Assembly (NCBI GenBank): GCA_023920165.1
Contig: CP089280.1
Coordinates: 1,054,001-1,118,000 of the forward strand
Length of the DNA stretch: 64,000 nt
Direction of reading: 5' to 3'
From: Curvularia clavata
Taxonomy: Eukaryota
The position numbers and the translations under genes were made by a program. The first letter of the stretch is position 1. Each line of letters starts with the position of its first letter. Below, piece after piece: positions 26,274-46,876 of this stretch. Under the pieces are notes generated by a model, which was not told the origin of the DNA, searched no databases, and saw only the letters and a list, made by a program, of their open reading frames with translations.

Positions 26274-26648
26274 ATGGCATCAGATCCTGTCAACCAAAAT
26301 CCCTTCCGGTTTCTAGATCTACCCGCAGAGCTTCGTTGCCTTGTATACGAAAACATCGAACTTCCCACTACTCGGGAGATTCTATTCAGCACAGTCTTCG
26401 ATAGCGGTGAAGAGGCCTCACCTCATCCCGCTGATATTGCTCTTTTCAGACCGCGCTTTCCAATCGAGATCCTCATGACCTGTCGCCTTGTCAACACGGA
26501 AGCTCTTCCTATTTTCAAGCGCAAATTGGGAGTCCGAGCTCCTTCAGTAGTGAGCTTGTCTTTCTGTGACCGGTGCAAAACTCATTACGTACTTCATCAT
26601 TTCTGTCAAGAGATCGAAACCGTACAAATTAAACACAAGTTTTCTTGA
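26274..26648 (+). pseudogene. F-box-like protein N-terminus, apparently truncated
   Basis: PFRFLDLPAELRCLVYENI and ILMTCRLVNTEA motifs. The frame loses protein-like character after about 26530 and ends just before the PKS stop codon. Confidence 0.55.
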
Positions 26649-26664
26649 GAAACACTACAAATAC

Positions 26665-29600
26665 CTACTCAACAACCTTATCATCTTGCTTGACATCCAC
26701 CGCACGACTCAACATCGCAATCTTCCTACACAAGACCTTGATCGTCGAAGTCCCCATTACATCCAACATGGGCACATCAGCTTTGACTTCTCTGGCAAGG
26801 AACGTCCGGAATTCTATCGCCACCAGCGAATCAATACCGTTCGCGCTAATCGACTTATCCTCATCAATATCCGCCACTGCTACCGAGAGCAAACTCGCCA
26901 GCTTCCCTTTTACCGCCGTAGTAATAATGTCGGCTGCTTCGTCCAGTGTCTTGGATGCAGCGAGCAGAGCTTCAACCGGGACCTCGGTGCTTTCAGATAC
27001 AGCAGAGCCTATCAGGCTCTCACTGTTCACGTGCGCGAAGAGTGGGAACTTCATGAATGAGGGTGTGGGCATGCCCTTGGTACGATACTTGTCTCTATTC
27101 GCAAGACCAGTGACAATCTGCGTGGGCGGCTGCTGTCGCGCATCGATAGCGTATTCGAGAATTGCGTGCAACTCTTCTTCACGGATTTGCTCGAGTTCAA
27201 CGCTGACGCCTTTGTTGATAGCTACCCGAGAGGAGTTCTCGGCTACGTAGCCTACAGAGAGAATGGCGCCGACGTCGATGCTGGTTGCGGTGAGGCCTTG
27301 AGCGTGACGGTGCGCTGCGAGTGCATCTTGGTAGGTGTTGCCGGCTGCGTAGTTTGCCTGACCACGGTTGCCGAGGATACCAGTGGCGGAGGAAAGAAGA
27401 ACGAAGTGATCGAGGTCTGTTGGAAGATGGGCGTGGAGGTTCCAGGAGCCGAGGACTTTGGGTTTTACGGCAGCCATGTAGCTGTCGTAGGTCATGTTTT
27501 CGAAGATGGAGTCCTAGAGAGAACAGTTAGTTGGGTTCTTTTAGCGTAAACAGTTCACTTTGGGATCGACTTACTGAGAGTTGCATAGCTCCTTGGATAA
27601 CACCCTTGATGGGTGGCAGGGAAGACTTGCACTCCTCCAAGACCTTTTGGAGCTCAGTGGCGTCTGCGACATCGCATTTTGCGATGCGAATTTTGCAGCC
27701 CTGCTCAGCCAGGTGTTTTTCCATCTCGGCAACGGCAGGAGTTATGTTTCCGCTGCGAGATAAGAACAACAGGTTGCGAGTACCCCTGCCTACCATCCAC
27801 CTGGCGATACTTCGACCTAATCCTCCGAGCCCACCGCTCAGGACGTAAGTCGCATCCGGTCTGAAGGTGAATGGAGCTTGCTGCTCGGGAACAATAGGGA
27901 CAACATCGTCAGAATTTGGCACAAACACCATCTTGCCAGTTCCACGACCGGACTGCAGTGTTTGGAATCCCTCGACCAGCTTGGATAGTGGTGAGACTGT
28001 TGTTGGCTTCGCGGGCTTAACAATGCCCTCGCTCCAGAGGCGTATTGTATCGTCTAGACCTTGTTTAATCAGATGCGGTCGGTGATTCATCATTGTTACA
28101 AGATCAACACAAGTCATTGAGGTACCCATAAGTAGGGGTCGCAACTCGATCTTGGAGTTGGCCTGAATGTCTTTCTTTCCGATCTCGATGAAGCGTCCGA
28201 AGGGGGCAAGAAGTTCCCAAGAGCATCGCAAAGCCTAGTCTACTGTGTCAGCCACATGTCTAATGTGATGGGTCGAAGAGGGCTGTGGTCATACATCGCC
28301 GGCGAGTGAGTTGAGAACAACATCCACTCCGTAGCCGCCAGTCATGCGTCGAATGCCTTTCGCAAAAGTTAGGTCTCGGCTAGAAAAGATGTGGTCTTCT
28401 GGAATGCCACATTCTTGAACGAGTAACTAGCACCAAGTCAGTACGTGATTTTGCTCACGCGGGTGAATTAACAACTCACGTCCCGTTTCTCTGCTGTAGA
28501 GCAAGTGGCAAAAATCTCCGCCCCAACACTCTTCGCGTAATTGATAGCTGCTTGTCCCACACCTCCGGCTGCGGCATGAATCAATACCTTTTCCCCCTTT
28601 GCCAATCTCGCCACATCTCTTAGACCATACAACACAGTGACGTACACAGCCGGCAGTCCAGCCGCATCCTCGTAGCTCAAGCCTTCCGGGATCTTAGTCA
28701 CCACTGACTGGTCTACTCGGCCGAAAGTATGGAAGCAACCGACATGATCCAGGCCAGTGATATAGGTGACCCGGTCTCCAACAACTACATCCGTGACCTG
28801 AGAACCGACGCGAGAGATGACGCCAGACGCTTCGCATCCGATACTGTACGCCATATGCTCCCCCATCGCAATCATCAAGTCTCGGAAGTTGAGACCCATG
28901 GCTTTGATCTCGATTTCTACATGTGTGGGGTCCAGCGGGGTGTTGTAGACAGGGTCAGTGACCCATTGTAAGCGATCTAGCTGACCTGGCGATGCAGAAA
29001 CCAGTTTGACTGGGCGACCTGCGTCCTTCCAAGCGGTAGGAACGGGCTGTGGAGTACTGAATTGCGAGGCGAGGAAATGGTTTCCACCAAAACTCGGCTT
29101 GAGTCGACTGGTGAGGAAAGTTCCTGCTTTCAGGATGTACTCGCCCTGCATCTCGTCTTTGCTAACGGTGTTGGAGAATTGAAGCGCGCTAAGCTTGCAT
29201 ACCAACTGGATGAGATCTTCGGTGTCGGGCCGTGGACTTGCTACGGACAACGTGACGAGGTTCGCATCGTCCAAGTCTCGTTCCCATCGTACTGTGCGTA
29301 TGAGGCCGAGCGCCATGCCGTACTGCGGGTTCTCCATCATATCTCCTGTGATCCAAAGGAGGGCTTGACACTCCGTCAGCATCTTCCGGACGCCCTCGTA
29401 GTCTTCTGGTGTCAGGATTGACAAGACGGGATTCTCTAACTCCAGGAGTGAAACGCATAGAGTCTGGTTTAGGTCTTCGTCTTTCAGCTGCTGGACCGTC
29501 ATGATAGAGACATTCCTACTCCGAAGCGAATCTTTCAGTTTTTGTTGGAGTCCTATGACCAGATCACTGCCCGATACTTCAGAGGCGACGATGATCAATT

Positions 29601-32600
29601 TCTCCCTGGACACATCCAATACCGCATTCTGTTCCACGGCACGCGACACAAGAATGCTCTGCGTATGTGTTACAGAATCCTGCGCATCTTTCAACTCCAA
29701 CTCGACACCATCAAACCCTGCTTCTTTCAGCAGCGTTGCCCACTGATCTTTCGATGCAAATGGACACCACCGCCTCATCTCCTCTTTTGACAGCCACCAT
29801 CCACTTAGCTGTCCGAAAGCCAGTGCCGACCAGAAATAATCTTGCCTCATTCCTTCCTGGATCAGAATTCGGCCACCGGGCTTGAGTAGCTTTCTCAAGT
29901 TCGATAATGTAGCATGCAAATCCTCAGTAGCGTGAATCACATTCTGTGCGACAACGATGTCATACATTTCAGCTTCGAAGCCCTGACTCTCGACATCTTT
30001 CTCAGCGTGCAGAACCTTGTATTCGAACAGCGACTGCCAGAGCTTGAACTTCTCTCTGGCTTTTTCAAAGAAAGCAGAAGAGATGTCGGTGTATGTGTAC
30101 TGCAAGACACTAGACTGGAGGAGTTTTCCGTCGTCGGAGACGGGAGCCAGATGACGGATGATGGCTTCGGTAGATGACCCAGTTCCAGCGCCAACTTCTA
30201 GGACGCGAAGGTTCGTGCGGTTTTCACCGAGGATCTGGAGATATTTGGCTAGCAGCTCGGGCAAGTTTCCAAGACGCACAAGGTCTGCGTAGACTTCGTC
30301 GAGGATGTTGTCCTGGCCAAACATCAGGTGGAGCGGGTCAGTTTCGCCACGCAGTACAGAGAAAATGTTTGAGCCCATGCGATAAGCCAGGCGTCCTTCA
30401 GCCTTATACTCCTGGATCTGTTTGTACAGCTCGACTTTGGCTGCATCGTTGTAGCGAATAGCTTCAAAGTCGGAGCGCGAGACTGAAGAGATTTTGTCTT
30501 CACTAGTCCATAGTTCGAGTTGCTCCAGCCATTTGAGGTAGTTCTGTAGATGGCCTTGAGGGGTTCCAGGAAGTTTTCGATATGTGTCTAGGGCATCATG
30601 GACGAGGCAGAGAGTGGCCAGTTGTAGCCGTTGCACCCATTCGGCTGTGAGGCTATCTGACCGGACCGGACCATCCTCCACGACCAAGTCTGCTTGAGAG
30701 ATAGTCTCCAGATATACGGGCCACTTCACTTCGTGACACAACTCTCTACTAGTTGACGTGCGCTGATCTGCCGAGTCTAGTGGTGTAGCGCGAATACCCG
30801 TGACAGAAATTCTCGCATCACCAGTAGCCTCGTCCCACACGAGAACGTCATTGTCGTATTTTTCGAAAGCAACTCGCTCCGTTCGGCCGTGGACCTTGTA
30901 TTTGTGACCAGGTTGAGGACTCAGCTCGGCTGAAACCCAAACATCTTTGATGAATGTAGGCACTGCTGGGTTCTCCAGACTCGTGGCACCGAATAGATCC
31001 ATGATAGCAGCGAGAGCAAAATGTATCATACTGTCAAACGTGGCAGGGTGAATGAGATGTGGTGAAGCATGTTGCTTAGGCATTGACGCCGCAATGTCTG
31101 GCACAGTCACTCGTCCCAATACCGCTCCGCCTTTGTTGCCAGTGCCACTCACATCCGATCCGTTTCGGAATAGCGGGCCAAATTGAAGTCCTACGGTGGC
31201 CATGTTTTCGTATGCACGGAACATGTCAAATGTTGCCTGGCACCTACGCTCGGCCTCTTGCAGTTCTCGATGTTTCATGGCTGACTCCTCCCGAGCTTCC
31301 CGCCCACCATCAACTGGACCATCAGCCATAGCATACTCTACGGCAATGTATCCTGTACAGTGCTCAATCCAATCATCCCCTGCAGGGTTGTAGGATGATA
31401 TCTGGAATCGGCGCCATGCCTTTGAGACTGACAAACTCGATTCATCTACTCGATGCATCGAAATCACGACTTCCAGTCCCTCTTTGTTATCTGGGACGAT
31501 CATCGCACGTTTAATCGAGATATCTCTGAGGCGGAAAGAGTTGATGGTCATGCCTTCATCGGCAATCTGCTGGATCGCCTCTATAGCCATGATGAGGTAG
31601 CCAACACCCGGATAGACATACGAATTTGTAACAACGTGATCGCGCAACCAGGGCTGCTCACTGATTCGGAAGATGTTTCTCCATTGAGGGCTCTCTTTGT
31701 TCCAATCTGGAACGGGCGCGCCGAAAAGGTCATGACGAGGCGCTTTACGAAGACGATAATTGCGACTGAGCCGGCTTTCGTACCAGAGGAGCTGAGAGTG
31801 GTTGAAGGCGTAGCTGGGGACGTCGGTCAATAGGGCATGTGGCCGACTCAATGATTCCAGCTGAGAACTTTCGTTGATTTTCTGGATACTGATTGGGTAG
31901 CCTCGACACCAGATGTGGCCCAGCGCAGTCAATAAAGTATCCGGTCCAGGTTTGGAACGATTTAAAACGGGGAACGAGGTTATACCAGTTCCGCTAGGTT
32001 GAGTTGCGAGAATGTCTTTAATAGCGCTTTGGAGAGCACCATGAGAGCCAAGTTCCAGGACAACATCTGCGAAATGGTTACCTCCTTGGGTATCAACTCG
32101 AAGAGAAATCTGTCCCGACTGTGCGGGCCGGAAGCAAGTCGCTGTCATTCCATCAGAGAATCGAACTTGAGACACCAAGTTCTTGACCCAATATTCAGCA
32201 TTGAGAACTTCATCAGTTACGAAAGTCCCTGTCACCGTTGAGACCATCAACACGGTGTTGGGTTGGATAGATGGATCTGGTGAGAGGCCGTCTAGAAGCG
32301 CGCCATACTCAGCTGCAATATGATTCATGTGCGGTGAGTGATACGCCTTGCCAATCGGCAACTTCCTGACAAAGATTTGCTTGGCATGCAATATGTCATG
32401 GAGTTCCGAGATTAGATTCTCATCTCCGGAGATGGTGCAGTTCCTGGGACTGTTACTGCAAGCTACTACTAGAGTCCCTTTAGCAGCCAAGTCGTCCACG
32501 TAAGGTTGAGCTTCATCTTGGGATAGCCCAACAGCCAACATTGCTCCACTGCGTTCGCTTTGCTTTGCAGAGACTATTCCGCGGTAGTATGCCACACGCC

Positions 32601-34952
32601 AGGCTGACTCACGAGACAGTTTTCCTGCAGCATAGGCCGCAGCTATCTCTCCCGAACTGTGACCTACAACTCTAGATGGCTTCACGCCCCATGACCTCAG
32701 TAGATCAACAAGTGCGACCTGCACCGCCGTACAAGCGGGTTGCGATAACCAAGGTTCGTTGACATTGCTTTGCTGAGGAGTACGAGAAAGTTCATCGAGA
32801 AGAGACCATGTTGAGCCCAAGGATGTAAAGAATTGAGATGCTTCTTCCATGCTCCTACGGAAGACAGGGTAAAAGAAGAGTTCCCGGCTCATCGTAGCAT
32901 ACTGAGCTCCTTGACCCGTGAAGACGTAGGCGATAGATATGGGCCCGCGGGCTCGGAGAACTTTGGAATGGGCGTTGGGAAGGGCAGCAAGCAACTCCGA
33001 AGTGTTCCCAGCAAGCAGAAAACTGCGCCAGCTAAACTGCGAACGTCGATTCATAGTGTAGGAATAATCTTGTAGAAACGTCGAAGGATGTGTAGAACGA
33101 GATTCGAGAAAAGCGACCTGCGCTTCTGCATTCCGTGATATACCTGCTTCATCAAATGCAGAGAGACCGATGAGTTGGGGAGGGGCTGGGATTTGCTCGA
33201 CCAACTCCCAACTTCTTTGACTGTGACATCCATTGAGTCCGTTTTCAACTTCTGAATGACCATTTTGTGTAGGGGATGTTGATGTTCCGTTCTCTTCTAC
33301 TGCAGACCCGTTTCCATTTAACAGTGGAGGCTCGGACAGCAGATTGGAAGAGGCAGGGGCTTGCGCAGCATGAGTCAGAGCATCTAGCTCCTCCCTCGAA
33401 GGCGCTCTAATCGTGGTACGGTGATTGCCAGTCAACCCTTGTTCTTGTAAATAGTTGTATGCATCGTCAAGGATAGCATGTGCATTTGTCCCTCCTACTC
33501 CAAATGAGTTGATTGACACTCTGCGAAGGCCTTCCGTCGGCCATGGCACAGCTTCATTGGCGATAGAAAGATTCCATTTCTGGAACGGAATCTTGGGGTT
33601 TGCTCTCTCAAAATTTGCCTGTGGCGGTATGATTCCATTTTCTAATGCAAGAACGCTCTTGATGATCCTGCATACAGAAACGGTTAGTTTTGAACAATTC
33701 TTTGTAGATGCGGGAGAGTATCGCTTACCCAGCAACACCAGCAGCACCTTCCAGATGGCCGACGCTAGCTTTGACGGAACCCAGATACAATGGCTTATCT
33801 TTCCGCCTCGATTTGAATGCCTGTGCGACACCACGGGCTTCGATGGCATCGCCCTGGCGAGTTCCCGTTCCATGCGCTTCGACTAAGGTGGTGTCGTCGA
33901 AATTCAGCCCCGCAGAGGCGTATGTAGTTTTGATCAATCTTTCTTGTGCATCACTACTGGGAAGCGTGAGGCCTGGAGTACGGCCATCCTGGTTAACTCC
34001 TGTGCCACGTGCGACAGCACGGATGGTATCGCCATCACGAAGAGCGTCACTTAGGCGCTTAACGATCACGGTTCCAACTCCTTCTCCACGGGCAAAGCCA
34101 TTGGCGCGGTGATCAAAACTGAAACAACGGCCATCAGGACTGAGGAAGCCTTGATGAGACATCCCATTGATATCACCTTCACAGAAACATCACGGTTAGC
34201 TTTCATGGCAAAGTTTTTTCGTTTTTCGTCTTACCAGGGTAATTGAGTATGGTTACACCCGTAATAATTGCCATATCGCTTTCTTTTGTTCGTAAGCTCT
34301 GACTGCCGAGATGCAAAGCTGCCATAGAACTGGAGCATGCGGTGTCGACAGTTACACTTGGTCCTTTAAGATCGAAAAACCATGAGACACGGTTACTGTG
34401 CATGGAGTTGGTAAGACCAGTGACGCGATGCCTTAGCGTCGTCTCTGGATCACTGTTTAGTATAGCAAGATGATCATGGTTGAAGCCGGAAACGTAGACT
34501 GAAGTGTTGGATCCTGCAACTTGTTCCAAAGTAAGGCCACTATTTTCGAGAGCATGGTACACATTTTCCAAGACAACGCGTTGCTGCGGATCTAGTGACA
34601 TGGCTTCACCCTTGGTGATTCCGAAAAAGGAAGAATCGAAATACGCTGGATCTTCAGCGAGGAAGTGGCCACCTGAAAGATGTTAGATATCTATATGGTA
34701 TCCTAATTTCTTTGAATCTAGCCTGCGAAATAACATACCTTGAGCAGCATGTGTGCCGCCATGTTCAGGATCCGGATGATAGTGCCCTGGGCCTATCCGA
34801 TCCTCAGGGATTGGTGTATGTGCACACTTTTTCGCGAGCAAGAACTGCCACAATCGCTCTGTGGTGGATGCATCTTGTGGAAAGCGGGTTGCAAGGCCAA
34901 CAATAGCTAGTGGCTCTGCTTTCGGGACAGCTCCAGCTAAGCAAACTGTCAT
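26665..34952 (-). CDS. Highly reducing iterative type I PKS (KS-AT-DH-CMeT-ER-KR-ACP), 7 exons
   Basis: [46 protein letters not shown] and HPATFD; CMeT LEVGAGTG and [25 protein letters not shown] and NYAAGN; ACP GIDSL. Six GT-AG introns (e.g. 34673-34738, 34177-34234, 33668-33728) all restore the frame. Confidence 0.97.
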
Positions 34953-35892
34953 TTTTGAATTTGAATGCTATGAAAGTGATTGAAGATGGGTCTTGTCTCA
35001 AGATAACACCCGTAGTGCATAAAGTTTGCGGGCAGCGATGTTAAAGTAGTCCGTTTCGACACACCATATTATCCTCATGCTTTCCAGATCGGATATCTCC
35101 ATAAACTCCTACCTCGCTGGGTACTATTTAGTCCAATCGGATATCGCACCTACAAACTACTGACCTAGAACCATGAAACTGCACCGAAAGATTTCAAATC
35201 GACTATTACTGGTGGATTGAGCGACACAATGAATCACGTCCACGAGGGTCAAGTGTACTCCACTTTCTTGTCAGTGAGTTGCAGCCTGCCCACGCGCTCG
35301 GGCCGTTTTTATGCATCAAAAGGGCCGTTTACAAGGCCTGGACAGCTTCCGAGTAGCAAAAATCTTACCTCTCCTACATCAAAGCTACTGACATCAATTG
35401 TGTTCTGGAGGTCAATTTTTGTAGTTTTTACGAGTCTCACTATAAGCTCAGGTCCAGGTGTTGCGTTATCCACCCAGACGGTAACACTGAAATTCCAACC
35501 CTGGTCATGTTACTTTACCTACATACTTTGGATACAGATGTTCTTGGGTTTTCAGTGGGGTCAATCTAAATCTTGTTCTGTTCCGTAACAATCCCTGCTC
35601 TAGGTAATGCTTCCGTTCCAAGCTACGGATGCCACATGATCATTCCGCCTTTACCCCCGGCTTTTCTGGGACATGCGAATAGTCACGTATTGGGCAAGCT
35701 CCGTATCTGTACGATGGTGGGGTTTTCGCCTGGTTGAGGGAATACGGGCCGACTTTCGTATCCCAAACCTTCTCGCGTGCCTCGCGTCTTATAAGTAGAA
35801 ATTTCGTTGGAACGTCAGGTGACAAGCACCAACTGGAAGGAATGTTTTCCCACGCAACAGAAACAATCTGACAAACTTATTTGACACTGATA

Positions 35893-37530
35893 ATGTCTTT
35901 TGGACAACAGTGGCAATATCCAATGGACTCGGCATGGCTGATATCCTTTGTTTTCGGGGCACTCATAGCGACCATTCTCTTCACACACTCTCTCTCCTAT
36001 ATACGAAGCATTCGCCAAACTCAAAATGGAAAATTCGAGCCGCCTCTACTACCCTACTGGATTCCCTATTTTCAACACCTGCCTGCATTCCTTTTAAACC
36101 CGGCATCTTTGTATGAGGCTGGGAGAAGTCGCTTCTCTGGGCAACCCTTCACCCTCGTCCTGGCAGGCACAAAATTTCATGTATTCTCCTCGGTCGAATC
36201 TGTCAACCATGTATTTAGTCGGTCGAGACTCTTTTCTTTTGATCCCGTCATGGCAAGCATGATGGAGAACGGGGTTGACCTCCCCCCTCCGGATCGACCA
36301 AAGTTCCTGTCGTCAACGGTGGACAAAGCAGAGGGAAGGTTTCTGACTGAAAATCACAACATATGGACGAGATATCTTTCGGGAAAGCGTCTCAGTGGCG
36401 TCATGGACATTTACATGTCTGCGCTGCCTCCTATCTTGAAATCAAGTCTCGATCTGTCGAGTGATCAGTGGCAAAAGAAGAGTTTGTACCCATTCTTGAG
36501 AAGAATCATCTTTGAGACGAGCGTACAAACTTTTTTTGGTCCTCGATTGGCTCAGTTCTGGCCAACTATGTGGGATGACTGGAGAAGATTCGATGATGCT
36601 ACTTATATCGGTGTGCGATCCAATTGGGCGTTCAAATTACAGCCGAAGATTTATAAAGCCCGCGAAAGAATGTTCCAAGCATTCGAGCGGTGGTTGGATG
36701 CGGCAGAGGACTACGAGTGGGATAATGCCGAAGAAATCTGGTGTGAGAACTGGGGGCTACGTCTGAACTACGAGAGAGACGTATTGGGCAGACAATGTAG
36801 TTTCACGAAACGGGGAAGAGCATGTCTGCAAGCTAGTTTTCTTTTTGTGTACGTATTGAGAGACTGCCACAATAACAAAACAGTCCTAATCAATAGTAAC
36901 AGAATCGTAACGAACGCTGCTCCGATGGCGACTTGGTTTGGGTATTGCGTTGCGTCAAATCCCTCTCGCCTGACCGAGTATCGTACCGCTACTAAACCTT
37001 TCATCCTCACCTCCCCTACGTCTTCAGATTTAGGTTCAACACCTCATTTTGATCTGCCCTCCCTTATCAAAGAGCCTTTCGTTCACTCCCTCTGGCTGGA
37101 AGCACTGCGACTGGGAACCATGTCTGCAGCTGCACGAGTTGTGACTCAAGATACCGTCCTCGAGGACTATGTGCTTCGGAAAGGCTCTGTCGTCCTGATG
37201 CCGGTACATCTCATGCACTTTAGCAAGGAATTTGAGCCAGGTGTGAAGAAGTTTCAACCAGAACGGTGGTTGGTCGAAGATGCGGATAAATTGAAACGTC
37301 AGAACATGGCGATGCGCCCATTCGGTGGTGGGACGAGTCTGTGCTCAGGAAGATATGTAGCAGAGATGGAGATCTTAGGTGTTGTCAGCGTGCTGGTGGA
37401 AATGTTGGATTTTAGATTCGAGGATCAATCGGAGGATCACTGGGAGTTCAATCCTAGAAGCATTGGCGTCATGGCGCCGAAGAAGGACGTCATTGTTTGG
37501 GTAAAGAGCAGAGATAAGGTAAGCACATGA
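35893..37530 (+). CDS. Cytochrome P450 with a CYP7/8-like I-helix
   Basis: N-terminal TM anchor, PPLLPYWIP, EALR, PERW, heme motif PFGGGTSLCSG. 54-nt intron 36849-36902. Confidence 0.93.
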   Translation: MSFGQQWQYPMDSAWLISFVFGALIATILFTHSLSYIRSIRQTQNGKFEPPLLPYWIPYFQHLPAFLLNPASLYEAGRSRFSGQPFTLVLAGTKFHVFSSVESVNHVFSRSRLFSFDPVMASMMENGVDLPPPDRPKFLSSTVDKAEGRFLTENHNIWTRYLSGKRLSGVMDIYMSALPPILKSSLDLSSDQWQKKSLYPFLRRIIFETSVQTFFGPRLAQFWPTMWDDWRRFDDATYIGVRSNWAFKLQPKIYKARERMFQAFERWLDAAEDYEWDNAEEIWCENWGLRLNYERDVLGRQCSFTKRGRACLQASFLFVYVLRDCHNNKTVLINSNRIVTNAAPMATWFGYCVASNPSRLTEYRTATKPFILTSPTSSDLGSTPHFDLPSLIKEPFVHSLWLEALRLGTMSAAARVVTQDTVLEDYVLRKGSVVLMPVHLMHFSKEFEPGVKKFQPERWLVEDADKLKRQNMAMRPFGGGTSLCSGRYVAEMEILGVVSVLVEMLDFRFEDQSEDHWEFNPRSIGVMAPKKDVIVWVKSRDKVST

Positions 37531-37769
37531 ACCAGCCAAGTTTTTCTATTTATTCGTTGCTGGCCTCTGCATTCTTCCTTTCTATCCCCTCATAGCCGTT
37601 CGAACTTAGTGAAGTACAATTTCTAACATCTTCCAAACCCAATATACGGTATGAGCATTCTGTTTCTTTGGTACAGCAGGAACTAGATTCTTCTTGTCGT
37701 CCTCAGCTTCTCCTTGTACATGCTGGTAATTATGGAATAATTCTTTAGCATGTGCGTGGCGTTCCGTTT

Positions 37770-38746
37770 TCATGATAACTCCGCTAATTCTCTGATCGTA
37801 TCTGCGATGTGCTTCATCAACTGCCTCCCTCTAGGAAAATCATGTCCGAATTCATGGTGAATCTCGTCCACCTGATGCTCTTCGCACAGCTCGACTAGAT
37901 GCTTGCCGTGATGCGGATCTACCATATCTTCGGCCATGCTTCTGATATGTAGGGTCGGGATATCAATCAACGGTGGTTGCAAATTCTTTCGCTCCCATCT
38001 GCATAGCCCATACTCGCCATCGCTGAGAAATGGGGTGCCATCTGCCATTTTTCTTCCCTCGAATCTGTTCAATAGCCCGAGTAGTTTTGCATGATCCACT
38101 TGATCCTCTTCGCTGACTCCAGGCTTGTGGCGGAGCGCGCTAGGACGAAGGAACATTTCCTGTGCTTCTTGAAAAGTTTGAGAAATGTCGAAGTGGCCGT
38201 CGCTTAACTCGACATCATCGACATGGAAAATACGCAAGGGGGAGGCGCCATTGACGAAGACCGCGAAGCGAAATAAGGGCTCAATGTATGATTCGGATTG
38301 AGCAGCGTCAATGATCAGCTCAGCGGCTAGCGCTGCTCCACCAGAGTAAGCGAAAACCCCATCAAAGGGGCCATCGCTTTTGAGAATATGGAGAAGTTCT
38401 TCGTGCGTTTGTAGGATAGATTTAGGGCTCAATGGGTTGTAATATGTGTACAAAGGGAGCTTAGAAAAGTCGGATGTGTGTAATGACCAGTTTCCTATTG
38501 TAGTGATCGAAGAATCGTCAATAACGTGCTTTCCGTCGTAACTATTAGACTTGTCTTACCTTCAGTGTGTCGGACGGTACCCTGAACAAAGACCCATTCA
38601 AAATCTTCTAGAGCTGCGCGGATAGGTGCTGTCTGCATACGAAAGATCTGAACTTATCATCAGCAGGTTGGACAGTAATAACATGGACGCTTGGTATTAC
38701 ACACCTCATTGTTTGAGCCTCTTCCGTGGAGGCAAAGTATCTTCAT
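37770..38746 (-). CDS. FSH1/DUF341 serine hydrolase (LovG-type polyketide-releasing esterase)
   Basis: MKILCLHGRGSNNEIF, GPFDGVFAYSGGAALA, IPTLHI..D, GHDFP. Two 5' introns. Confidence 0.88.
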
Positions 38747-40448
38747 AGTTACTAGCTCGCCGATGTGGAAAGGGTACTGAACTACAAGATCTCTGTTCGG
38801 TGGTAGTAAGAGGCCTTAGGTGGCGTGGGGATATTTTAGGGCTTCATCAAAATGGCTCGGACTTGATTTCTAAACGAATCTAAACAAATTATACGTGGAG
38901 AGTAATGGTTAGGCCAGTTCAGCAAGGTTGGCAGCAGAAGTGGGGTTGCAAACAAAGGGATTCATTGGTTAGTGATCTATTTTGTAACTCATCTACATAT
39001 GTTCAGACATGTAATTGAGCCACCCGTGCTCATTCTCCTTCACAAATATATCAAAGAAGGTCTATCATATATGCCGCTGCAATTCACTCTTGTATTGCTC
39101 TTATGTCAGTTCAAGATACAAAATATGACAAGACAGTCCAAAGAGAAACCATCTCTCGTGTATTCACCAAGCACTTGACCAAGATCAAGGATTTGAAATA
39201 AGCATGAGTCTATGAGAGCATACTCGGGGCAAAGATACCCAGATTCCGGCTCATTTCAAGGCGAGACGTCAGGAGATCACTTCAAGTGCGAAAGTCAAGT
39301 GCCACTCGTGTTGTTGGCCCAATCAGCCGGCAAGTTTGGGCTCCGTTTGGCAAAAATCAAGGAATGAACGCTCTACGCTAATCCTGCAACTCGGTTCGGA
39401 AAGGCCTATGAAAACATGATATTTCATTAATTTCTCCGGAGCTGTGCCCCACAAAGCTAGAGTCCAATACGTGAAGGATCTAGACCCTATTCTCCTCAGC
39501 ACTACAACGATTCATTGTAGGCATTGAGGCATAGATTTTCGTGCGAGCTAGGCGCGGTGTGTCAAGACTGGGAGTACTTCGGGTCGGCCTACCTACTTCT
39601 ACGAGAAACTGTGGGGGGTGGAGTAGTTGTCGATTTGAAACGTCGTGGCTGTAAATACATGCTATGTAGTATACAGCAGCATCTTCGTACTTGCATTAGT
39701 GCCCGGACGTTGCTCCATGCTTACAAGACTGGAAGTGGAGACCCCACTTGGGCAGTACCTAGTTTTGCTGGCCTCGCACTAGTTTCGATTCACGGGGGGA
39801 ACGGTGCAGTACCCGATGCAGCTTCCTGAATCCCGGCTTCAGGTAAGTTTGAGTGACACTAGACCACGTGAAATTTATTGACTATGCAGGACGTAGTGAG
39901 GGCCACTCTTTGAGTATTGGGTATTAACATGTGCCTCCAATCATTCGACAGTGTCGAATGATTGGTTGTTGCAAAGATATCTCAGCTTCCAGATCTCAGG
40001 CTCTACTTGCTTGTGGGAAAAAGCTTGCCAACCAGCAAGTTAAACAAGCAAACGCAGCCAAGCAATTTAAAAGCATATACCCTGGAGGCCAAGACTGTCT
40101 ACAGGTCTATGTGGTAACGCTAAATTAGCTGCCGAAGTTGAACCGTTTACACAACAACCCTTACTTGCGGAAGAACTTGACAACTGCTGATGGCGGCGAG
40201 CTCGAAGATGCTGATGCTAGTTTTTATGGAAGATGATTCACAAGCTAGACTAAAATGACGCAATGCTCCGATGTTAAACTACATGGTGTAGCTCTAAAGG
40301 TGTCTTCTCGGCGGTTTACCATGCAACGGTCCGACTATCATGCGGTCTTTCACAGGGATCACGCGAGCTCTCACCTTAAGCTCGTATGCACACTGCTGTG
40401 TATCATAGTCTCTGCCCTCTGGGTTGTGCGGGCGTGCTTTACAACGCA

Positions 40449-42233
40449 ATGACTATGTCTACTTCCAAAACTATATCCGCAATGCCACAAAACTCGAAAC
40501 TCTGGTGGCAATCTGCCATCGGCTACCAAATTTGGCCAGCATCTTTCAAAGACTCGAATAGCGACGGTGTAGGCGATATCAATGGAGTCCTCAGCAAGCT
40601 CGACTATCTCCAACTACTTGGTGTCGATCTCATCTGGTTCTCTCCAGTTTATGACTCTCCTCTCAGAGATATGGGCTATGATGTCTCGAACTATGAATCA
40701 ATTCATGCGCAATTTGGCACCCTCGCTGATATGGATAATCTTATCCGAGAGGCTAAGAAACGGGATATCAAGATCATCATGGACTTGGTCGCGAATCACA
40801 CATCTGACAAACATCACTGGTTCCTTGAGAGCTGCAAGTCACGATCAGGGCGGTATAGTGATTGGTATATCTGGCGAGATCCAAAGTACGATAGCGAGGG
40901 AAACCGGCAGCCACCAAACAACTGGCGCACTGGGTCGCGATACGGAAAGAGCACATGGAAGTATGTGGCCGAAAGAGATCAGTACTACTTCTGCTTTGGA
41001 ACTTCGTATCAGCCAAACTTGAACTGGTTCTGCGAGGAACTTAGACGTGCAGTATATGAAAGCGCGGTGAAGTTTTGGTTGGACAGGGGCGTGGATGGAT
41101 TTCGAATGGATCTGGTTGGGTTATATTGGAAGGATCCGTCCTTTCCAGATGCAAAAGAAGAGTACCCTGGAGAAAAATTACAGCCTCTTGACGGAACACG
41201 CTGCTTGAATGGCGAAGAAGTTCATTTCTGGCTAAGAGAAATGAAAGAGAGAATTGTGCACGACTTTGGGAATGAGGTGGTCTTGATTGGGGAATTGCCT
41301 ATGACAGACCGAAAGACATTTCTACGATATATTAGTCCCGACTCAAAAGAGCTAGAAATGGCTCTTGACACGGACATATTTATCACTGGTAATGATTGGA
41401 AGGATGGCCTGTACGAACTCAAGCGTCCAGAGTTACCACTACTTAAAGATGCTGTTCAGAAGACGCAAAGCCTTCTCGACGATGGAGGTTGGCCTACTGT
41501 ATTCCTCGAAAACCACGATTTCGCTCGTAGTGTCTGCCGCTTTGGACCAGGCGAAGGGGTCTATCGTGAAGCTGCCGCGAGGATGATGGCTCTCTTGGCG
41601 GCGACACTTTCTGGAACCCTATTCATCTATCAAGGCGAGGAAATAGGAATGACTAACGTCCCATCGTACTGGGCCCGAGATGATTTCCAAGATAACGCCG
41701 ATCTTGAGCATATCGAAGACATTGATGCAACCAAAGACCCTGCTGCGGTGGAAAAGTCCGTCACTGCGCTGGCGACCTGGGGTCGAGACAACGGAAGGAC
41801 GCCGGTTCAATGGTCGAACGAAATGTATGCTGGTTTCAGCGATGTAAAGCCCTGGATCAGAGTTATTGATAACTACACTGATATAAATGTTGCCGAACAA
41901 CTGGGAAAGCCTGATAGCGTGCTTTCATTCTGGATAAGGATGATGAAAGTGAGGAGAGAAATGTCGCAAGTGTTGATGCGCGGGTCTTTTCGTCTCCTTG
42001 ATAGAGACAACCTCAGTGTGTTTTCATACTTGAAGACAAGCACCGACGGAGAGACGGTGATGCTGCTGATGTTCAATTTCTCAAGCGAGGAGGTCCAGGT
42101 TCCAAACGGGATTGGGACTGATCCGATGGAACTCGTCTGCACAACGGCAGGTGCTTCGACAAACAGTAGCCTAGGAGAAGGACATTTACAGCCTTGGGAA
42201 GGTCGCATGTACCAGCTGACTGCGAAATCGTAG
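40449..42233 (+). CDS. GH13 alpha-glucosidase/oligo-1,6-glucosidase-like enzyme, intronless
   Basis: WW..YQIWPASFKDSN.DG.GD, DMGYD, DLVANH, QPNLNW; catalytic motifs GFRMD, IGE, NHD; YQGEEIGM and RDNGRTP. Confidence 0.93.
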   Translation: MTMSTSKTISAMPQNSKLWWQSAIGYQIWPASFKDSNSDGVGDINGVLSKLDYLQLLGVDLIWFSPVYDSPLRDMGYDVSNYESIHAQFGTLADMDNLIREAKKRDIKIIMDLVANHTSDKHHWFLESCKSRSGRYSDWYIWRDPKYDSEGNRQPPNNWRTGSRYGKSTWKYVAERDQYYFCFGTSYQPNLNWFCEELRRAVYESAVKFWLDRGVDGFRMDLVGLYWKDPSFPDAKEEYPGEKLQPLDGTRCLNGEEVHFWLREMKERIVHDFGNEVVLIGELPMTDRKTFLRYISPDSKELEMALDTDIFITGNDWKDGLYELKRPELPLLKDAVQKTQSLLDDGGWPTVFLENHDFARSVCRFGPGEGVYREAAARMMALLAATLSGTLFIYQGEEIGMTNVPSYWARDDFQDNADLEHIEDIDATKDPAAVEKSVTALATWGRDNGRTPVQWSNEMYAGFSDVKPWIRVIDNYTDINVAEQLGKPDSVLSFWIRMMKVRREMSQVLMRGSFRLLDRDNLSVFSYLKTSTDGETVMLLMFNFSSEEVQVPNGIGTDPMELVCTTAGASTNSSLGEGHLQPWEGRMYQLTAKS

Positions 42234-43012
42234 CCTTTAAGGGATCTCTACACACTAATTGATCTCATGGAACACAACAGCATGGCATTGAATGCGTTAT
42301 CTAGGAGTAACAAAATCGACTTGTTCCAAACTTTATTCTGATACATCTGGCACTTTTAGACAATTCTTTAGGACCATAAAGAAATCAACAACGTATCATG
42401 ATAACCACATGGACTTCCAGAGAAGCATTGAGGTGATGAACAGGGGCACGTACGGGGTATTGATATTCGACTCTTCCTGCCACCTCGGGGCCCTTTACAA
42501 TTTGAGATGCGACATGACAGTCTAAGAAAGTTATGAGCAAGCTAAGTCTAGGGCTTCAAGAAATATAATTGATATCGAGACGGTCTAAATTATGACCCAA
42601 TCCAGAGACGATTCAAACAGCTAGCACAGCCTTCACGACCGGGGCTCTTGCACATTACGTAGACAATTCCAATTAGCTAAACGATACACAGGTTAGCTTA
42701 CTTATGTAGGGTTGCGGAGTTTTCGGTCAATTACCCCAGTGATCGATGGTAGCCGTAAGTCGGCCCGAGGAGTACGGCGGAGCTCGTAACAGTGTTATCC
42801 GACAAGGAGCAGAACCCATGCACGACATTTAGCGCATGCGTGTCAGCTGCTTGAACCAGGCTTGCGACATTTATGCATGAAATATTTCTTTGCTTTCTAG
42901 GGTCTCTAGTACATCCGGTTCGGCGGTGATGAAAGAAGGATTAGTCCTTGAAATAGACGTCGTACAAATCACATTCCAATAACAGATTTGCAAGCCCCAT
43001 TGTATCAATGCA

Positions 43013-43905
43013 ATGGAGCAAAGCTCACTTGCAGGAAAAGTGAGTATGCAACTGCCTACTGCGTACTCAGTCGCGGGATGATGTAGCTAACAATCTCGCT
43101 CCTCAAGGTTGCCATAGTTACTGGAGCTTGTTCAGGTATTGGGCTGGGAACTTTGAAGCTACTTTTATCACACAGAGTGAAAGTCGCCTCATTCGATATC
43201 ACGAAGGTATCACCATGCGAGCATATCGATGCTATCCACGTGGAATGTGATGTTTCTCAACGAGAGCAAGTGGAAAAATCTGTGGCCGCTGTTTATGACA
43301 AATGGAAAAGAATTGACATTCTCATCAATTGTGCTGGAGTGCTTGATCATTTTGGTGAGTCCCCATCCTCACTCTTAGGCTCCTAAAGCCCATGAGATCT
43401 TCTGTTCCTTACAAATGACATTTGCAATATTCTAGCGCCAGTAGCTACCACTAGCGACGACGACTGGCAACGCTGTTTCGCTGTCAACGTGGATGGGCCA
43501 ATGTATCTCATGCGCGCTTGCATACCTCATTTTCTATCACAAGATACCGGTGGGCGCATCGTCAATATCTGCTCAACCGCTTCGATTAGAGGAGCTGCTT
43601 GTGGCGCGGCCTATACAGCTTCTAAGCACGCTCTTCTCGGTTTGTCGCGGTCCACTGCGTGGATGTATGCTAAAAAGGGTGTACAATGCAATGCTATTCT
43701 ACTTGGGCCGACGGGTGACACCAATATCACCAAGATTGAGGGTGAATGGGACAATGTCGGGTTTGAGCGATGTCAACCATATGGAAATTGTTTGCCCGAA
43801 GTTTTAAAGACTGAGCAAGTTTTACCCACCTTGCTCTATCTATGTACCGCTCCCGGGTTGAATGGAGCTGAACTAGCTTTAGACTATGGATTATCTACAG
43901 CATGA
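43013..43905 (+). CDS. Classical short-chain dehydrogenase/reductase
   Basis: TGACSGIG, INCAG, YTASK. Introns 43040-43107 and 43355-43435. Confidence 0.9.
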
Positions 43906-43987
43906 ATGCCAAAACTGTTTCCGTTATGTGCCATAGAAACATGAGTAGATGTCCATGAGAAACACCGAGTCCATTCCAAACTCAGGC

Positions 43988-45180
43988 CTACCGGAACACC
44001 AGCATCTCTCTTTCCCACAAAGCTCCTGTGGCAACACCTATTGGTCCACCAAGTATCAAATACCACAGCAGCTTCAAGCAAAATGACCCTAGTACTTCTG
44101 GTGATTCAACGCCGCTGCGAGCTTGAAAGTACAGAGCAATTGCCCAAATTGCAGTGCTGAGACCTCCGATTATGCCGTCCCACTGCAACAGCCATTTTCC
44201 TCCTTCAAACGCATCTCTGCATTTTATTCCACTCCATGGAGAAGGTGGAACAAATAGGCTTACTAATCGAAGTTTGTGATAGTGAGGCGCAGGAGTCTTG
44301 CGGATCTTCTGTAATGCGCGAACGCCAAAGGAGAGAAAGATAGGGATCCAAACCGAGGCTACAGCCGTGATAAAGGCAAAAGCATAGACTGGTCTGAGGT
44401 TGGACAAAAAGGGCTCGGAATATGCATCCTCTGGTGTAGACACTGTTCCACTGTGACCCCACCAAGTGACCAGTAGGAAATGAAGTAAACTTATGTAAAG
44501 GTTCCACTGCTGATACAACGACGCAACAATGTGTTTTGTGTTGAATCTAGACACACATATTCCGGGCATCGCCATGATGAATAAAGGCAAGACGTTGCCC
44601 AGTAAGAAGCTCCAAGGAATTGCCCGGAGGTGGCTTGTTTCAACCATAAGACTTTCTCGTGTGGTTGCGGGAGCTGCAACCGCCAATCTAATTGCCAGAT
44701 AAAGCGAGGTGAAGACAGCGTGTGACTGGTTGTAGATGAAGATCCCTGGGATGGTAATCCTATAAGCATAAGCCCAGATGATCAGCAGTGCCCAGTAACA
44801 ATATCGATGAAGAACTTGTTATTTGCTTACCAAGACATCAATCGGCTTCGACTATATTCTCTCAAGCTTTCCAGCACGATCAAGATCCATGATGAACACC
44901 ACGACACTGCAAACCAGAAGCCCACAATATTTACATCTGGCTGTGCGAGATTTTCACAAAAGATCAGTTGAAAAGAAGCGACCGCATTGATTTGAAGATC
45001 AGCAACTGGGATACGCCCCTCAGAGATTAGAGTGCGAAGGGGTTTTCCTGCCGGCGTAGATCTGGTGCTAATTTGACTTTCGAGGCGCCCTACAAGCCCG
45101 TTCGAAGCCGCGAAGAGGTGTAAAGATTTGAAGCCGAATAGAGAGAGTAGAGCGCATAATATGGCAGCAACGATTTGCAT
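43988..45180 (-). CDS. Multi-TM membrane protein resembling the CtvD/AurD/AscI epoxide hydrolase/cyclase family
   Basis: Intron 44760-44830 joins RLMSW|ITIPG. Many hydrophobic helices. WILIVLES, IPWSFLLGNVLP, LLQWD and C-terminal GP....LWERE resemble the family as I recall it. Confidence 0.6.
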
Positions 45181-46876
45181 GACTAATATGGGCAATGAAC
45201 TGCTGATTATAAGGAAATGTGAAAATTCATGTGGTTTATATTTTTGGGGTCAAGAAGGCTTTTTGCTCGGGACATACACCCCCGACTGCACAGTAAACAT
45301 GCGTATCACATGTGCAGACTATCGGCTCCACTACAGGCAGATGATGCAGGGATATGGCCAAGTAAAGTAGTGCGGACAAGAGGTGGAGAATAAGTACCGG
45401 ATCACAATGTAAAAACGCCCGATTGGTGGCATTAGCTCGGCTAAGAACCTCTCGGTCAAACTCTTCTCAGCTTCATGTTTTTTGAATACCCTTTTACCAG
45501 ATCTTATCACGTCTAGACTTTTGCTAAATCAAGAAGCTTACTGTCTCCAAAAAAGCTCCAAGTCGTAATGCCGCTGAGGAAAGATCATATCCTTGTACAC
45601 AAAATGCGTCAAACATGCTAAGTGTGAATGCATAGGAAGATTCCTGTTACGAAGAATGCATTTGCTGCATAAAGAAAATCAAAGAAGGATTACTTATGAG
45701 TAAGAGGTCAATTGAACTCACCGGGATAGGTACCCACTCCCTACATAGCGTACTCAATGCACAAACCTGTACGAAAACCTATGATTTCTAATTTTTGAGC
45801 CAAAAAAGCTAGCTGTTGTTATAGAAATTAAGTGGTGGGGAAATTTTTACGGCTATATCTTCCACCATGAATAGTTCGACCAAGGTTGCAAGCCTGATAA
45901 TCCAAGATAGCGGCTCATTCATGAATTAGAGAGTTTTCCCTGGGCTTTTTCCAACACTTCCAAGCATCACGTTTCTCGTTTGTTGCATCCTTTCCTGTAA
46001 ATCATGTCGACGTCGTCTTTCTCTCGGCTCCTGTTTCTGTTCAATCCCATGAGGGGATTTTCGAACAGCAATCCTTCTCCTTTCTCACAAGCTCACTTAC
46101 AACAATTCGTGGAACTGATTAGCAGCATCTGGATGGTTGGTATACTATCCTTGCACGGTAGCCGTATTCCGTACCTGGATCTTCCTAGTCCAACAGATGT
46201 CTGTTCATCTTACCATGCGTTGTTGTGATCAGCATAGGTGGGAACAGGTTTGTGTAGCAAAAGGGGCCTGATACATATAAATTAATTGATGAAAAGTATC
46301 TAACACATTGTATTGTTGGAATAAGACGCACAATAGGTCCTCGAAAGTCCCATTCACCATCAAATGTGAAGTATTGGACTGCACGCATGTTTCATGTCAG
46401 ATTATTAGTTTCTAAATCAGCGATGTAAAGTACTGGATTTGTGACAATATAGCTGATATATCATATTCATAAGAGTGTTAACTTCAATAGAGACGATTGA
46501 ATCATGGAGAGAATGTCCAAATGGGCTGAAAGATCCATTGCCGTTCGAGATCACGTGATGCCATATGCAGATAATGGCGGCAAATCAATGAACAGAAGGA
46601 CACGCAGTTGCTTTACAAGATGAGGATTCAGCTCACTATCAGCCTCCAGTTCCGCCGTGTTCGATCTCGTCGTCGCCTGTTTCACCTTTTTGTTCAAGGA
46701 AATACAAGAATAGTGAAGGCGACAGAGTAGCGCCAAGGCGGTCGGGGAAAGTGGCGCCGCTAAGCCCGAGATTCTTCTAGCTCTTGCGACGCGCTCACCA
46801 CCCGCGCGCAACTCCCAACTTTATACCTAGATCTAGGTATCCACCAGACCACTTTCAAGACAACCGACGCGCCACG

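What the first reader, a model, noticed from the sequence alone, without database searches (positions are those of the whole stretch)
40449..42233. Cluster-embedded GH13 glucosidase with intact catalytic triad but remodelled substrate pocket: self-resistance copy or repurposed transglycosylase?
Seen: catalytic Asp (GFRMD), Glu (IGE) and Asp (NHD), plus DMGYD and RDNGR, are retained. But the usual NNWxSxFGGSAW reads NNWRTGSRYGKSTW, YYLHLF..QPDLNW reads YYFCFGTSYQPNLNW, and the residue after the nucleophile is Leu (typically Val in alpha-1,6 enzymes, Thr/Ala in alpha-1,4 enzymes). No signal peptide and no introns; it lies between the FSH1 and SDR genes. Inference: (a) an inhibitor-insensitive target copy, implying the product is an alpha-glucosidase inhibitor; (b) an enzyme that glucosylates the polyketide from sucrose/maltose without a nucleotide-sugar transferase; or (c) an enzyme that deglycosylates a stored pro-toxin.
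Basis: partly seen in the sequence, partly recalled or inferred. Interest (0 to 1): 0.78.

Follow-up and report, generated by a model that had tools for sequence, protein, structure and literature searches.

The report
TreE-type trehalose-ester glucosidase in polyketide cluster
This gene is the Curvularia copy of TreE, an already described alpha-glucosidase that trims a trehalose-esterified polyketide to its glucose ester, so it is an ordinary member of a known fungal gene cluster.

Summary
An intact, intronless GH13 gene lies between an FSH1 hydrolase gene and an SDR gene beside a highly reducing PKS. All the quoted motifs are present. The likelier start is ATG 40482, not 40449.

The gene is not a self-resistance copy and not a transglucosylase. 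The window (Curvularia clavata) carries the conserved treA-E cassette of the treconorin-type cluster (Yan et al., JACS 2023, PMC10682982). In that paper, TreE purified from a Trichoderma strain hydrolyses the 1,1-glucosidic bond of a polyketide trehalose ester and leaves a D-glucose ester.

The window protein is 79% identical to the Bipolaris sorokiniana homologue used in the paper. I identified that homologue by reproducing the paper's Table S10 identities.

GH13 and PKS genes are adjacent or 2-6 genes apart in 21 genomes of 5 fungal classes. All 17 rows flagged as linked fall in one 46-row clade, separate from ordinary maltases.

Glucose-binding (-1) residues are invariant. The aglycone (+1) side is rebuilt, and most strongly in a Pleosporales/Mycosphaerellales subclade. 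dN/dS is 0.07. Spliced cluster transcripts and a full GH13 transcript occur in the same RNA runs.

Only the extra subclade remodelling remains uncharacterised.

The parts
40482..42233 (+). TreE-type GH13 alpha-glucosidase CDS (583 aa from ATG 40482).
   Evidence: PF00128, E 1.7e-127. 79% identical to the B. sorokiniana TreE homologue and 55% to the Trichoderma one. Unspliced RNA contig 40475-42235. dN/dS 0.070 against L001. AlphaFold2 model pLDDT 93.1.
26665..34977 (-). TreA-type highly reducing PKS (KS-AT-DH-CMeT-ER-KR-ACP), several exons. The ends given are approximate.
   Evidence: Pfam domains on exon frames. The database protein has 2642 aa and is named PKS2 [Curvularia clavata]. 84% identical to the B. 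sorokiniana PKS. Spliced joints at 27512/27574, 28233/28294, 28426/28480, 33666/33728 and 34174/34233.
35907..37530 (+). TreB-type cytochrome P450
   Evidence: PF00067. Conserved in L001 at 76% nucleotide identity. RNA contig 36964-37450.
37770..38751 (-). TreC-type alpha/beta hydrolase (Pfam FSH1). In the Trichoderma cluster this enzyme releases the polyketide onto trehalose.
   Evidence: PF03959. Conserved in L001. Spliced joints at 38493/38559 and 38647/38705 in X1 and X2. The role comes from PMC10682982.
43001..43905 (+). Short-chain dehydrogenase/reductase. It is conserved next to the GH13 gene in the window and in L001 but is not one of the five tre core genes.
   Evidence: PF00106 and PF13561. 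Conserved in L001. Joints at 43039/43108 and 43353/43435. dN/dS 0.078.
43988..45180 (-). TreD-type integral membrane protein. Elsewhere it is annotated 'terpene cyclase', and the paper calls it epoxide-hydrolase-like.
   Evidence: No Pfam family. The Fulvia fulva homologue is named 'Terpene cyclase' and sits on the same 4,369,283-base contig as that species' GH13. Joint at 44758/44830. The paper describes TreD as a predicted terpene cyclase about 21% similar to AurD.

Best explanation
The gene is the Curvularia clavata orthologue of TreE, the GH13 alpha-glucosidase of the treconorin-type polyketide cluster.

The pathway was shown for the Trichoderma afroharzianum cluster in PMC10682982:
- The HR-PKS (TreA) builds a methyl-branched polyene chain.
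- The alpha/beta hydrolase (TreC, here the FSH1 gene) releases the chain by esterifying it to the 4'-OH of free trehalose.
- TreE then hydrolyses the alpha,alpha-1,1 glucosidic bond of the trehalose ester, leaving a D-glucose ester.

I infer the following for the window:
- The retained -1 subsite binds the unsubstituted glucose of the trehalose head.
- D221, E282 and D357 carry out the usual retaining double-displacement hydrolysis.
- The rebuilt +1 side accommodates a glucose bearing a bulky acyl group, linked 1,1 rather than 1,4 or 1,6.
- The window has the five core genes plus an SDR and lacks the Trichoderma extras (a second P450 and an O-methyltransferase). Its end product is therefore probably the glucose ester (compound 2 of the paper) or an SDR-modified derivative.
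For: Shown in print. TreE converts trehalose ester 7 to glucose ester 2, both in A. nidulans co-expression and with purified enzyme. The paper states that the treA-E cassette is conserved in B. sorokiniana, Z. tritici, C. zeae-maydis and F. fulva (PMC10682982).

The paper's B. sorokiniana genes are the ones I hold. My BLASTP identities reproduce Table S10:
- TreE, B. sorokiniana vs F. fulva: 61.565% against 61.57%.
- TreA, B. sorokiniana vs Z. tritici: 58.733% against 58.73%.

The window GH13 is 79% and the window PKS 84% identical to those B. sorokiniana proteins.

All five core gene types are in the window. The six-gene block is kept in the metagenome relative L001 although the PKS-P450 pair has moved to the other side and is inverted.

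GH13 and PKS accession numbers or locus tags lie 1-6 apart in 21 genomes.

In the tree of 126 rows, all 17 rows flagged as PKS-linked lie in one 46-row clade (support 99). None of the other 80 rows is flagged.

The -1 residues D74, Y77, H117, R219, D221, E282, H356, D357, E398, R446 and R450 are kept in all three groups. Their few exceptions are two gaps at D74 and one Leu at R450. They map onto the -1 residues listed for BaAG2.

dN/dS is 0.070, similar to the neighbouring genes at 0.078-0.161.

In runs X1 and X2, spliced contigs of the PKS, FSH1 and SDR genes lie beside GH13 contigs. In X1 the GH13 contig spans the whole CDS, and the P450 and (spliced) membrane genes are covered too.
Against: The assayed enzyme is the Trichoderma one, only about 55% identical. 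I did not hold the T-22 sequence itself.

The window's subclade differs from the Trichoderma-type sequences at the +1 side:
- a two-residue insertion (T161, G162);
- Arg/Lys at 164 and Lys at 167;
- F165Y, F184G, D190N (QPDLN becomes QPNLN), N224G, F306L, F308T and Q358F.
The same substrate is therefore assumed, not shown.

The product of the Bipolaris or Curvularia cluster has not been isolated. The paper says compound 2 'may be' shared.

The RNA evidence comes from one study, from contigs that cannot give expression levels, and has no condition in which the cluster is off.

The paper's Figures 2A and S1 are not held, so I could not see its gene maps.
Confidence: 0.85

Rival explanations
1. 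Subclade neofunctionalisation. The Pleosporales/Mycosphaerellales TreE orthologues are still cluster enzymes but have shifted substrate or reaction. Examples would be a differently acylated or earlier (acyclic) trehalose ester, another disaccharide ester, or transfer instead of hydrolysis.
For: Thirteen positions, including a 2-residue insertion, are fixed or nearly fixed in 11 of 11 subclade sequences. They differ both from 37 other clade members (Trichoderma included) and from 50 housekeeping sequences. Among them are the equivalents of the +1 hydrophobic platform Phe300 of BaAG2 / Phe303 of ScIMA1, which is T308 here. The tailoring genes also differ: an SDR here against a P450 plus an O-methyltransferase in Trichoderma.
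Against: The paper treats the B. sorokiniana and F. fulva cassettes as equivalent. The -1 site and the catalytic residues are unchanged. The other four core genes are orthologous, so the trehalose-ester logic should hold.
Confidence: 0.1
2. Transglucosylase that adds glucose to the polyketide from sucrose or maltose.
For: Relatives such as BaAG2 transglycosylate efficiently. No nucleotide-sugar transferase was seen among the cluster's Pfam hits.
Against: In the characterised pathway the sugar arrives as trehalose through TreC, and the product is an ester at the 4'-OH, not an anomeric glucoside. TreE only removes a glucose.
Confidence: 0.03
3. Inhibitor-insensitive self-resistance copy of a maltase.
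For: It is a GH13 paralogue inside a BGC with an altered pocket.
Against: The clade is old and distinct, about 45% identical to the housekeeping clade. Its differences lie at +1, while the -1 site that known glucosidase inhibitors such as acarbose occupy is unchanged. A catalytic role in the pathway is demonstrated, and no antimicrobial or herbicidal activity of treconorin was found.
Confidence: 0.01
4. Bystander sugar-utilisation gene that merely sits next to the cluster.
For: Intergenic gaps of about 1.7 kb and 0.8 kb flank it.
Against: The linkage is kept through a rearrangement and across 5 fungal classes. No maltose permease or MAL regulator appeared among the Pfam hits of the window's frames.
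Confidence: 0.01

Closest known systems
TreE, alpha-glucosidase of the treconorin (tre) cluster of Trichoderma afroharzianum T-22 (Yan et al., J Am Chem Soc 2023, PMC10682982)
   Same: It has the same GH13 clade and the same five-gene cassette of HR-PKS, P450, alpha/beta hydrolase, membrane 'terpene cyclase'/EH-like protein and GH13. The catalytic and -1 residues are the same. The paper names the homologous cluster of the sister genus Bipolaris.
   Different: It is about 55% identical to Trichoderma-type sequences. The +1 side carries a 2-residue insertion, two basic residues and the loss of three Phe residues. The window's cluster has an SDR and lacks the second P450 (TreG) and the O-methyltransferase (TreF).
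Fungal GH13_40 maltases and isomaltases: BaAG2 (7p01/7p07) and S. cerevisiae IMA1 (3a47)
   Same: The fold and domain order match: Foldseek rank 1 is 7p07_B (TMq 0.91, rmsd 2.1 A, 38% identity), and 3a47 is rank 14 (TMq 0.90). The -1 subsite is identical.
   Different: The residue after the nucleophile is Leu/Val, against Thr in 40 of 50 housekeeping sequences. The equivalents of the +1 Phe residues are changed: position 184 to Gly and position 308 to Thr. QPDLN reads QPNLN, and Gln358 is replaced by Phe. The substrate in this family is a trehalose ester, not maltose or isomaltose.
Bacterial trehalose-6-phosphate hydrolase (GH13; B. licheniformis TreA, 5brp/5brq)
   Same: By its name and by recalled knowledge, it cleaves the alpha,alpha-1,1 bond of a trehalose substituted on one glucose. 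It is a close structural match (rank 11, TMq 0.87; sequence E 4.4e-117).
   Different: Its substituent is a 6-phosphate, not a 4'-acyl polyketide. It serves catabolism, not a biosynthetic cluster. It is no closer in sequence than other bacterial GH13 enzymes.

Membership tests
GH13 alpha-amylase superfamily, oligo-1,6-glucosidase/maltase group (Pfam PF00128) | Catalytic (beta/alpha)8 domain matched over its full length | tested here: met
   PF00128 profile positions 1-444 of 446, E 1.7e-127. AF2 model pLDDT 93.1, best fold match BaAG2 with TMq 0.91.
GH13 alpha-amylase superfamily, oligo-1,6-glucosidase/maltase group (Pfam PF00128) | Catalytic nucleophile Asp, acid/base Glu and transition-state Asp, plus the -1 subsite residues (Asp, Tyr, His, Arg, His, Arg) | tested here: met
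   D221, E282, D357, D74, Y77, H117, R219, H356 and R446 align with BaAG2 D216, E274, D348, D71, Y74, H114, R214, H347 and R440. They are invariant in the subclade.
GH13 alpha-amylase superfamily, oligo-1,6-glucosidase/maltase group (Pfam PF00128) | QPDLN signature in conserved region V (that this is the subfamily fingerprint is recalled, not taken from a call) | tested here: not met
   It reads QPNLN. Asn is in 11 of 11 subclade sequences, against Asp in 36 of 37 other clade members and 48 of 50 housekeeping sequences.
TreE of treconorin-type clusters | Encoded in a cassette with homologues of TreA (HR-PKS), TreB (P450), TreC (alpha/beta hydrolase) and TreD (membrane TC/EH-like protein) | tested here: met
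   All four lie within 26.6-45.2 kb of the window. The same block is present in L001.
TreE of treconorin-type clusters | Orthology to the homologues named in the paper | tested here: met
   79% identity to the B. sorokiniana protein. That protein's identities to the F. fulva and Z. tritici proteins reproduce Table S10 to two decimals. It falls in one clade with Trichoderma, Zymoseptoria and Fulvia sequences. The T-22 sequence itself was not in hand.
TreE of treconorin-type clusters | Hydrolysis of the 1,1-glucosidic bond of a polyketide trehalose ester to the glucose ester | not testable with these tools
   This was shown only for the Trichoderma enzyme. It needs an enzyme assay.
Self-resistance target duplicate in a BGC | Recent, close paralogue of an essential housekeeping target, with changes at the inhibitor-binding site | tested here: not met
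   The clade is old, at about 45% identity to the housekeeping clade. The -1 site is unchanged. The window's own genome is not held, so its housekeeping copies could not be listed.

The most novel reading that the evidence does not exclude
The Pleosporales/Mycosphaerellales TreE subclade (Curvularia, Bipolaris, Fulvia, Lecanosticta) may be a functionally shifted enzyme rather than a plain orthologue. It carries a conserved two-residue insertion, new Arg/Lys residues, and has lost three Phe residues and the QPDLN aspartate. It might recognise a different sugar ester (another acylation position, an acyclic or carboxylate-bearing intermediate) or favour transfer over hydrolysis. These pathogens would then make a glyco-ester different from the Trichoderma intermediate.
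Probability: 0.15. Interest if true: 0.45.

Novelty: new member of a known kind. Interest (0 to 1): 0.2.

Why it matters
It gives a puzzling 'maltase in a polyketide cluster' a documented role: sugar esterification through trehalose followed by glycosidic trimming. This also predicts the class of metabolite this Curvularia cluster makes, a glucose-esterified 5,7-bicyclic polyketide.

Two modest additions come from this work:
- The GH13-PKS pairing reaches beyond the taxa named in the paper, into Eurotiomycetes (Exophiala aquamarina), Lecanoromycetes (Circinaria calcarea) and Xylariales.
- The TreE lineage shows stepwise rebuilding of the +1 subsite that no structure or assay has yet explained.

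Tried and rejected
- Own-genome search for housekeeping paralogues: no genome is held for this window.
- Earlier findings of this scan, searched by sequence: nothing returned.
- Literature searches with GH13/alpha-glucosidase/PKS terms, Zymoseptoria/alpha-amylase terms and HR-PKS/glycoside hydrolase/glucoside terms (0 papers) did not find the system.
- A search by locus tags found only a remark that the T. virens PKS Trividraft_53518 has an unknown product. That protein is a lower-ranked hit, and its orthology to TreA was not checked. The decisive paper came up.
- A search for 'treconorin' gave that paper and two reviews, with no follow-up on TreE.
- ESM Atlas searches on the membrane protein gave only unnamed Ascomycota clusters.
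- RNA runs: no listed holder is on record as RNA. X1 and X2 were treated as RNA only because their contigs carry GT..AG joints. Depths were not used to rank genes, and parts without cover were not interpreted.
- X3 showed an unspliced PKS contig but a spliced SDR contig. I left it uninterpreted.
- The absence of a Fulvia fulva PKS among the 120 listed PKS hits first looked like a GH13 without a PKS. I rejected this because Table S10 gives a Fulvia TreA at 60.5%.
- No tandem repeats in 20-26.5 kb.

Full report
**Observation**

The window has an open frame at 40386..42233 on the + strand. From the ATG at 40449 it encodes 594 residues (P0001). Pfam's alpha-amylase catalytic domain PF00128 matches over profile positions 1-444 of 446 with E 1.7e-127.

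The neighbours are also as stated:
- an FSH1 serine hydrolase gene at 37770-38751 (-);
- an SDR gene at about 43001-43905 (+);
- a P450 gene at 35907-37530 (+);
- a multi-exon highly reducing PKS at about 26665-34977 (-).

The start is more likely ATG 40482. The database model has 583 aa. Nucleotide conservation with a relative begins at 40471. RNA contigs of two runs begin at 40475 and 40477.

**Organism and close relatives**

The PKS frame hits its own database record, named 'polyketide synthase PKS2 [Curvularia clavata]'. The nearest named GH13 relatives are five Bipolaris species at 79% identity. Fulvia fulva follows at 62% and Lecanosticta acicola at 60%.

**Is the gene a cluster member?**

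A metagenome contig (L001, 83% amino-acid identity) keeps FSH1, GH13, SDR and the membrane-protein gene in the window's order. Its P450-PKS pair lies on the other side, inverted. Its left flank (a histidine phosphatase, a Zn2Cys6 factor and a second SDR) has no counterpart in the window. The six genes therefore stay together through a rearrangement.

Across databases, GH13 and PKS accession numbers or locus tags lie close together in 21 genomes:

| Genome(s) | Genes apart |
|---|---|
| B. sorokiniana, B. maydis, B. zeicola, B. oryzae, B. victoriae | 3 |
| Lecanosticta acicola | 3 |
| Four Z. tritici strains | 3 |
| Z. tritici IPO323 | 1 |
| Z. brevis | 6 |
| Acrodontium crateriforme | 3 |
| Circinaria calcarea | 3 |
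| Biscogniauxia marginata | 2 |
| Xylariomycetidae sp. FL2044 | 1 |
| Exophiala aquamarina | 1 |
| Three Trichoderma species | 4 |
| Extremus antarcticus (a record at least 90% identical to Trichoderma) | 4 |

Further unnamed contigs carry both genes, as shown by equal contig lengths.

**Phylogeny**

I built a FastTree of 126 rows. It used 104 of the 120 listed hits and 22 of the first 25 representatives. Rows outside 540-720 aa were dropped.
- All 17 rows I could flag as PKS-linked lie in one 46-row clade (support 99).
- None of the other 80 rows is flagged, including a 51-row sister clade of ordinary maltase-like sequences.
- Unflagged means unknown, not unlinked.
- The window sits in a 9-row subclade (support 99). 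Its sister pair includes the Zymoseptoria sequence.

**Pocket**

I aligned 11 subclade, 37 other-clade and 50 housekeeping sequences.

D74, Y77, H117, R219, D221, E282, H356, D357, E398, R446 and R450 are kept in all three groups, apart from two gaps at D74 and one Leu at R450. Through the alignment, nine of them correspond to the -1 subsite and catalytic residues listed for the BaAG2 maltase (PMC8539097, passages read).

The subclade differs at these positions:
- an inserted T161-G162;
- 164 Ile/Phe to Arg/Lys;
- F165Y, G167K, F184G;
- E187 to Tyr/His;
- D190N (QPDLN becomes QPNLN);
- 222 Thr to Leu/Val;
- N224G, S227W, F306L, F308T, Q358F.

T308 aligns with BaAG2 Phe300 / ScIMA1 Phe303, which that paper describes as the hydrophobic surface of the +1 subsite.

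Some changes are shared by the whole PKS-linked clade:
- loss of Phe184 in 32 of the 37 other-clade sequences;
- Gln358 replaced;
- ATD to GPG at 366-368;
- Y33F.

The rebuilding therefore began at the base of the clade and went further in the subclade.

**Is the gene functional?**
- dN/dS against L001 is 0.070 over 579 codons, against 0.078-0.161 for the five neighbours. dS is above 1 for all but the SDR, so only the order of magnitude counts.
- The AlphaFold2 model has mean pLDDT 93.1 and pTM 0.92, with block 161-170 at 85.
- The best fold match is BaAG2 (7p07_B, TMq 0.91). Yeast isomaltase is rank 14, and a bacterial trehalose-6-phosphate hydrolase is rank 11.

**Expression**

No run is on record as RNA. 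Even so, the contigs of X1 and X2 (one study) carry canonical intron joints in the PKS, FSH1 and SDR genes, and in X1 also in the membrane gene. They leave the intergenic bins empty, so they derive from RNA.
- X1 holds a 1761-nt contig colinear with 40475-42235, with 7 differences.
- X2 holds two GH13 contigs.

The GH13 gene is therefore transcribed, without introns, in the same samples as the other core genes. Expression levels and co-regulation cannot be read from contigs.

**Identification**

A literature search found Yan et al., J Am Chem Soc 2023 (PMC10682982). I read parts 1 and 2 of 3 of the main text; part 3, the rest of the reference list, I did not read. I read supplement passages. 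The figures are not held.

The authors found one HR-PKS cluster conserved in B. sorokiniana, Z. tritici, C. zeae-maydis, F. fulva and Trichoderma. It has five shared enzymes: an HR-PKS, an alpha/beta hydrolase, a P450, an alpha-glucosidase, and a predicted 'terpene cyclase' resembling epoxide hydrolases.

For the Trichoderma afroharzianum T-22 cluster they showed:
- TreC releases the polyketide onto the 4'-OH of trehalose.
- TreB and TreD cyclise it to a 5,7-bicyclic core.
- TreE, both in vivo and as purified enzyme, hydrolyses the 1,1-glucosidic bond of trehalose ester 7 to give glucose ester 2.

They suggest that compound 2 may be a shared intermediate or product of the conserved cassettes.

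The paper gives no accession numbers in the text held. My BLASTP identities nevertheless reproduce its Table S10:
- TreE, B. sorokiniana vs F. fulva: 61.565 against 61.57.
- TreA, B. sorokiniana vs Z. tritici: 58.733 against 58.73.
- The other pairs agree within about 1-2 points.

The proteins I hold are therefore the ones compared there. The window's GH13 is 79% and its PKS 84% identical to them.

The membrane protein of the window has no Pfam family. Its Fulvia homologue is named 'Terpene cyclase' and lies on the same contig as the Fulvia GH13. This fits TreD.

**Verdict**

The gene is the Curvularia orthologue of TreE. The rebuilt +1 side is what one expects for an enzyme whose leaving group is a 4'-acylated glucose joined 1,1, instead of a free glucose joined 1,4 or 1,6.

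The three functional guesses miss the documented logic, and option (c) comes nearest.

**What stays open**

It is not known whether the additional, strictly conserved changes of the Pleosporales/Mycosphaerellales subclade alter substrate or reaction relative to the assayed Trichoderma enzyme. It is also not known what the SDR adds. The window lacks equivalents of TreF and TreG among its Pfam hits. A search for 'treconorin' found only the original paper and two reviews.

Noticed in passing
L001:1-21752 compared with window 26000-45200: In the 83%-identical metagenome relative, the P450-PKS pair lies downstream of the membrane-protein gene and is inverted relative to the window. The L001 left flank (histidine phosphatase, Zn2Cys6 transcription factor, second SDR) has no counterpart anywhere in the window.
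   Followed up: partly
database records P0289 and P0306 (Extremus antarcticus, 35,368-base contig): Both the PKS and the GH13 of this Dothideomycete record fall into 90%-identity clusters made up of Trichoderma proteins. This suggests a contaminating contig or a very recent transfer of the whole cluster.
   Followed up: no
database records for Exophiala aquamarina (A1O9_08434/08435), Circinaria calcarea (Q9187_000878/000881), Biscogniauxia marginata and Xylariomycetidae sp. FL2044: GH13-PKS pairs of the same GH13 clade occur in Eurotiomycetes, Lecanoromycetes and Xylariales. These taxa are not named in the treconorin paper's main text.
   Followed up: partly
window 43001-43905 (+): An SDR gene directly downstream of the GH13 is conserved in L001 (dN/dS 0.078) and spliced in RNA contigs. 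It is not one of the five tre core genes. No O-methyltransferase or second P450 appeared among the window's Pfam hits.
   Followed up: partly
window 5218-7011 (-): A 597-aa open frame carries a DDE_1 endonuclease domain (pogo/Tc5-like transposase). It sits between a mitochondrial-carrier gene and a TPR gene.
   Followed up: no
window 61998-63998 (-): A fragment of an NRPS (two PP-binding domains and a condensation domain) runs off the end of the window. It could be a second biosynthetic gene about 17 kb from the tre-like block.
   Followed up: no
window 26343-28853 and 42933-43353, run X3: In run X3 (another organism label, about 96% identity) the PKS contig is unspliced while the SDR contig is spliced. 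It may be mixed DNA and RNA, or intron retention.
   Followed up: no
window 22487-24340 (-): A 617-aa frame encodes a Glu/Arg/Lys-rich, probably coiled-coil protein with no Pfam hit. The stretch is GC-rich with strong AT skew, and no tandem repeats were found.
   Followed up: partly
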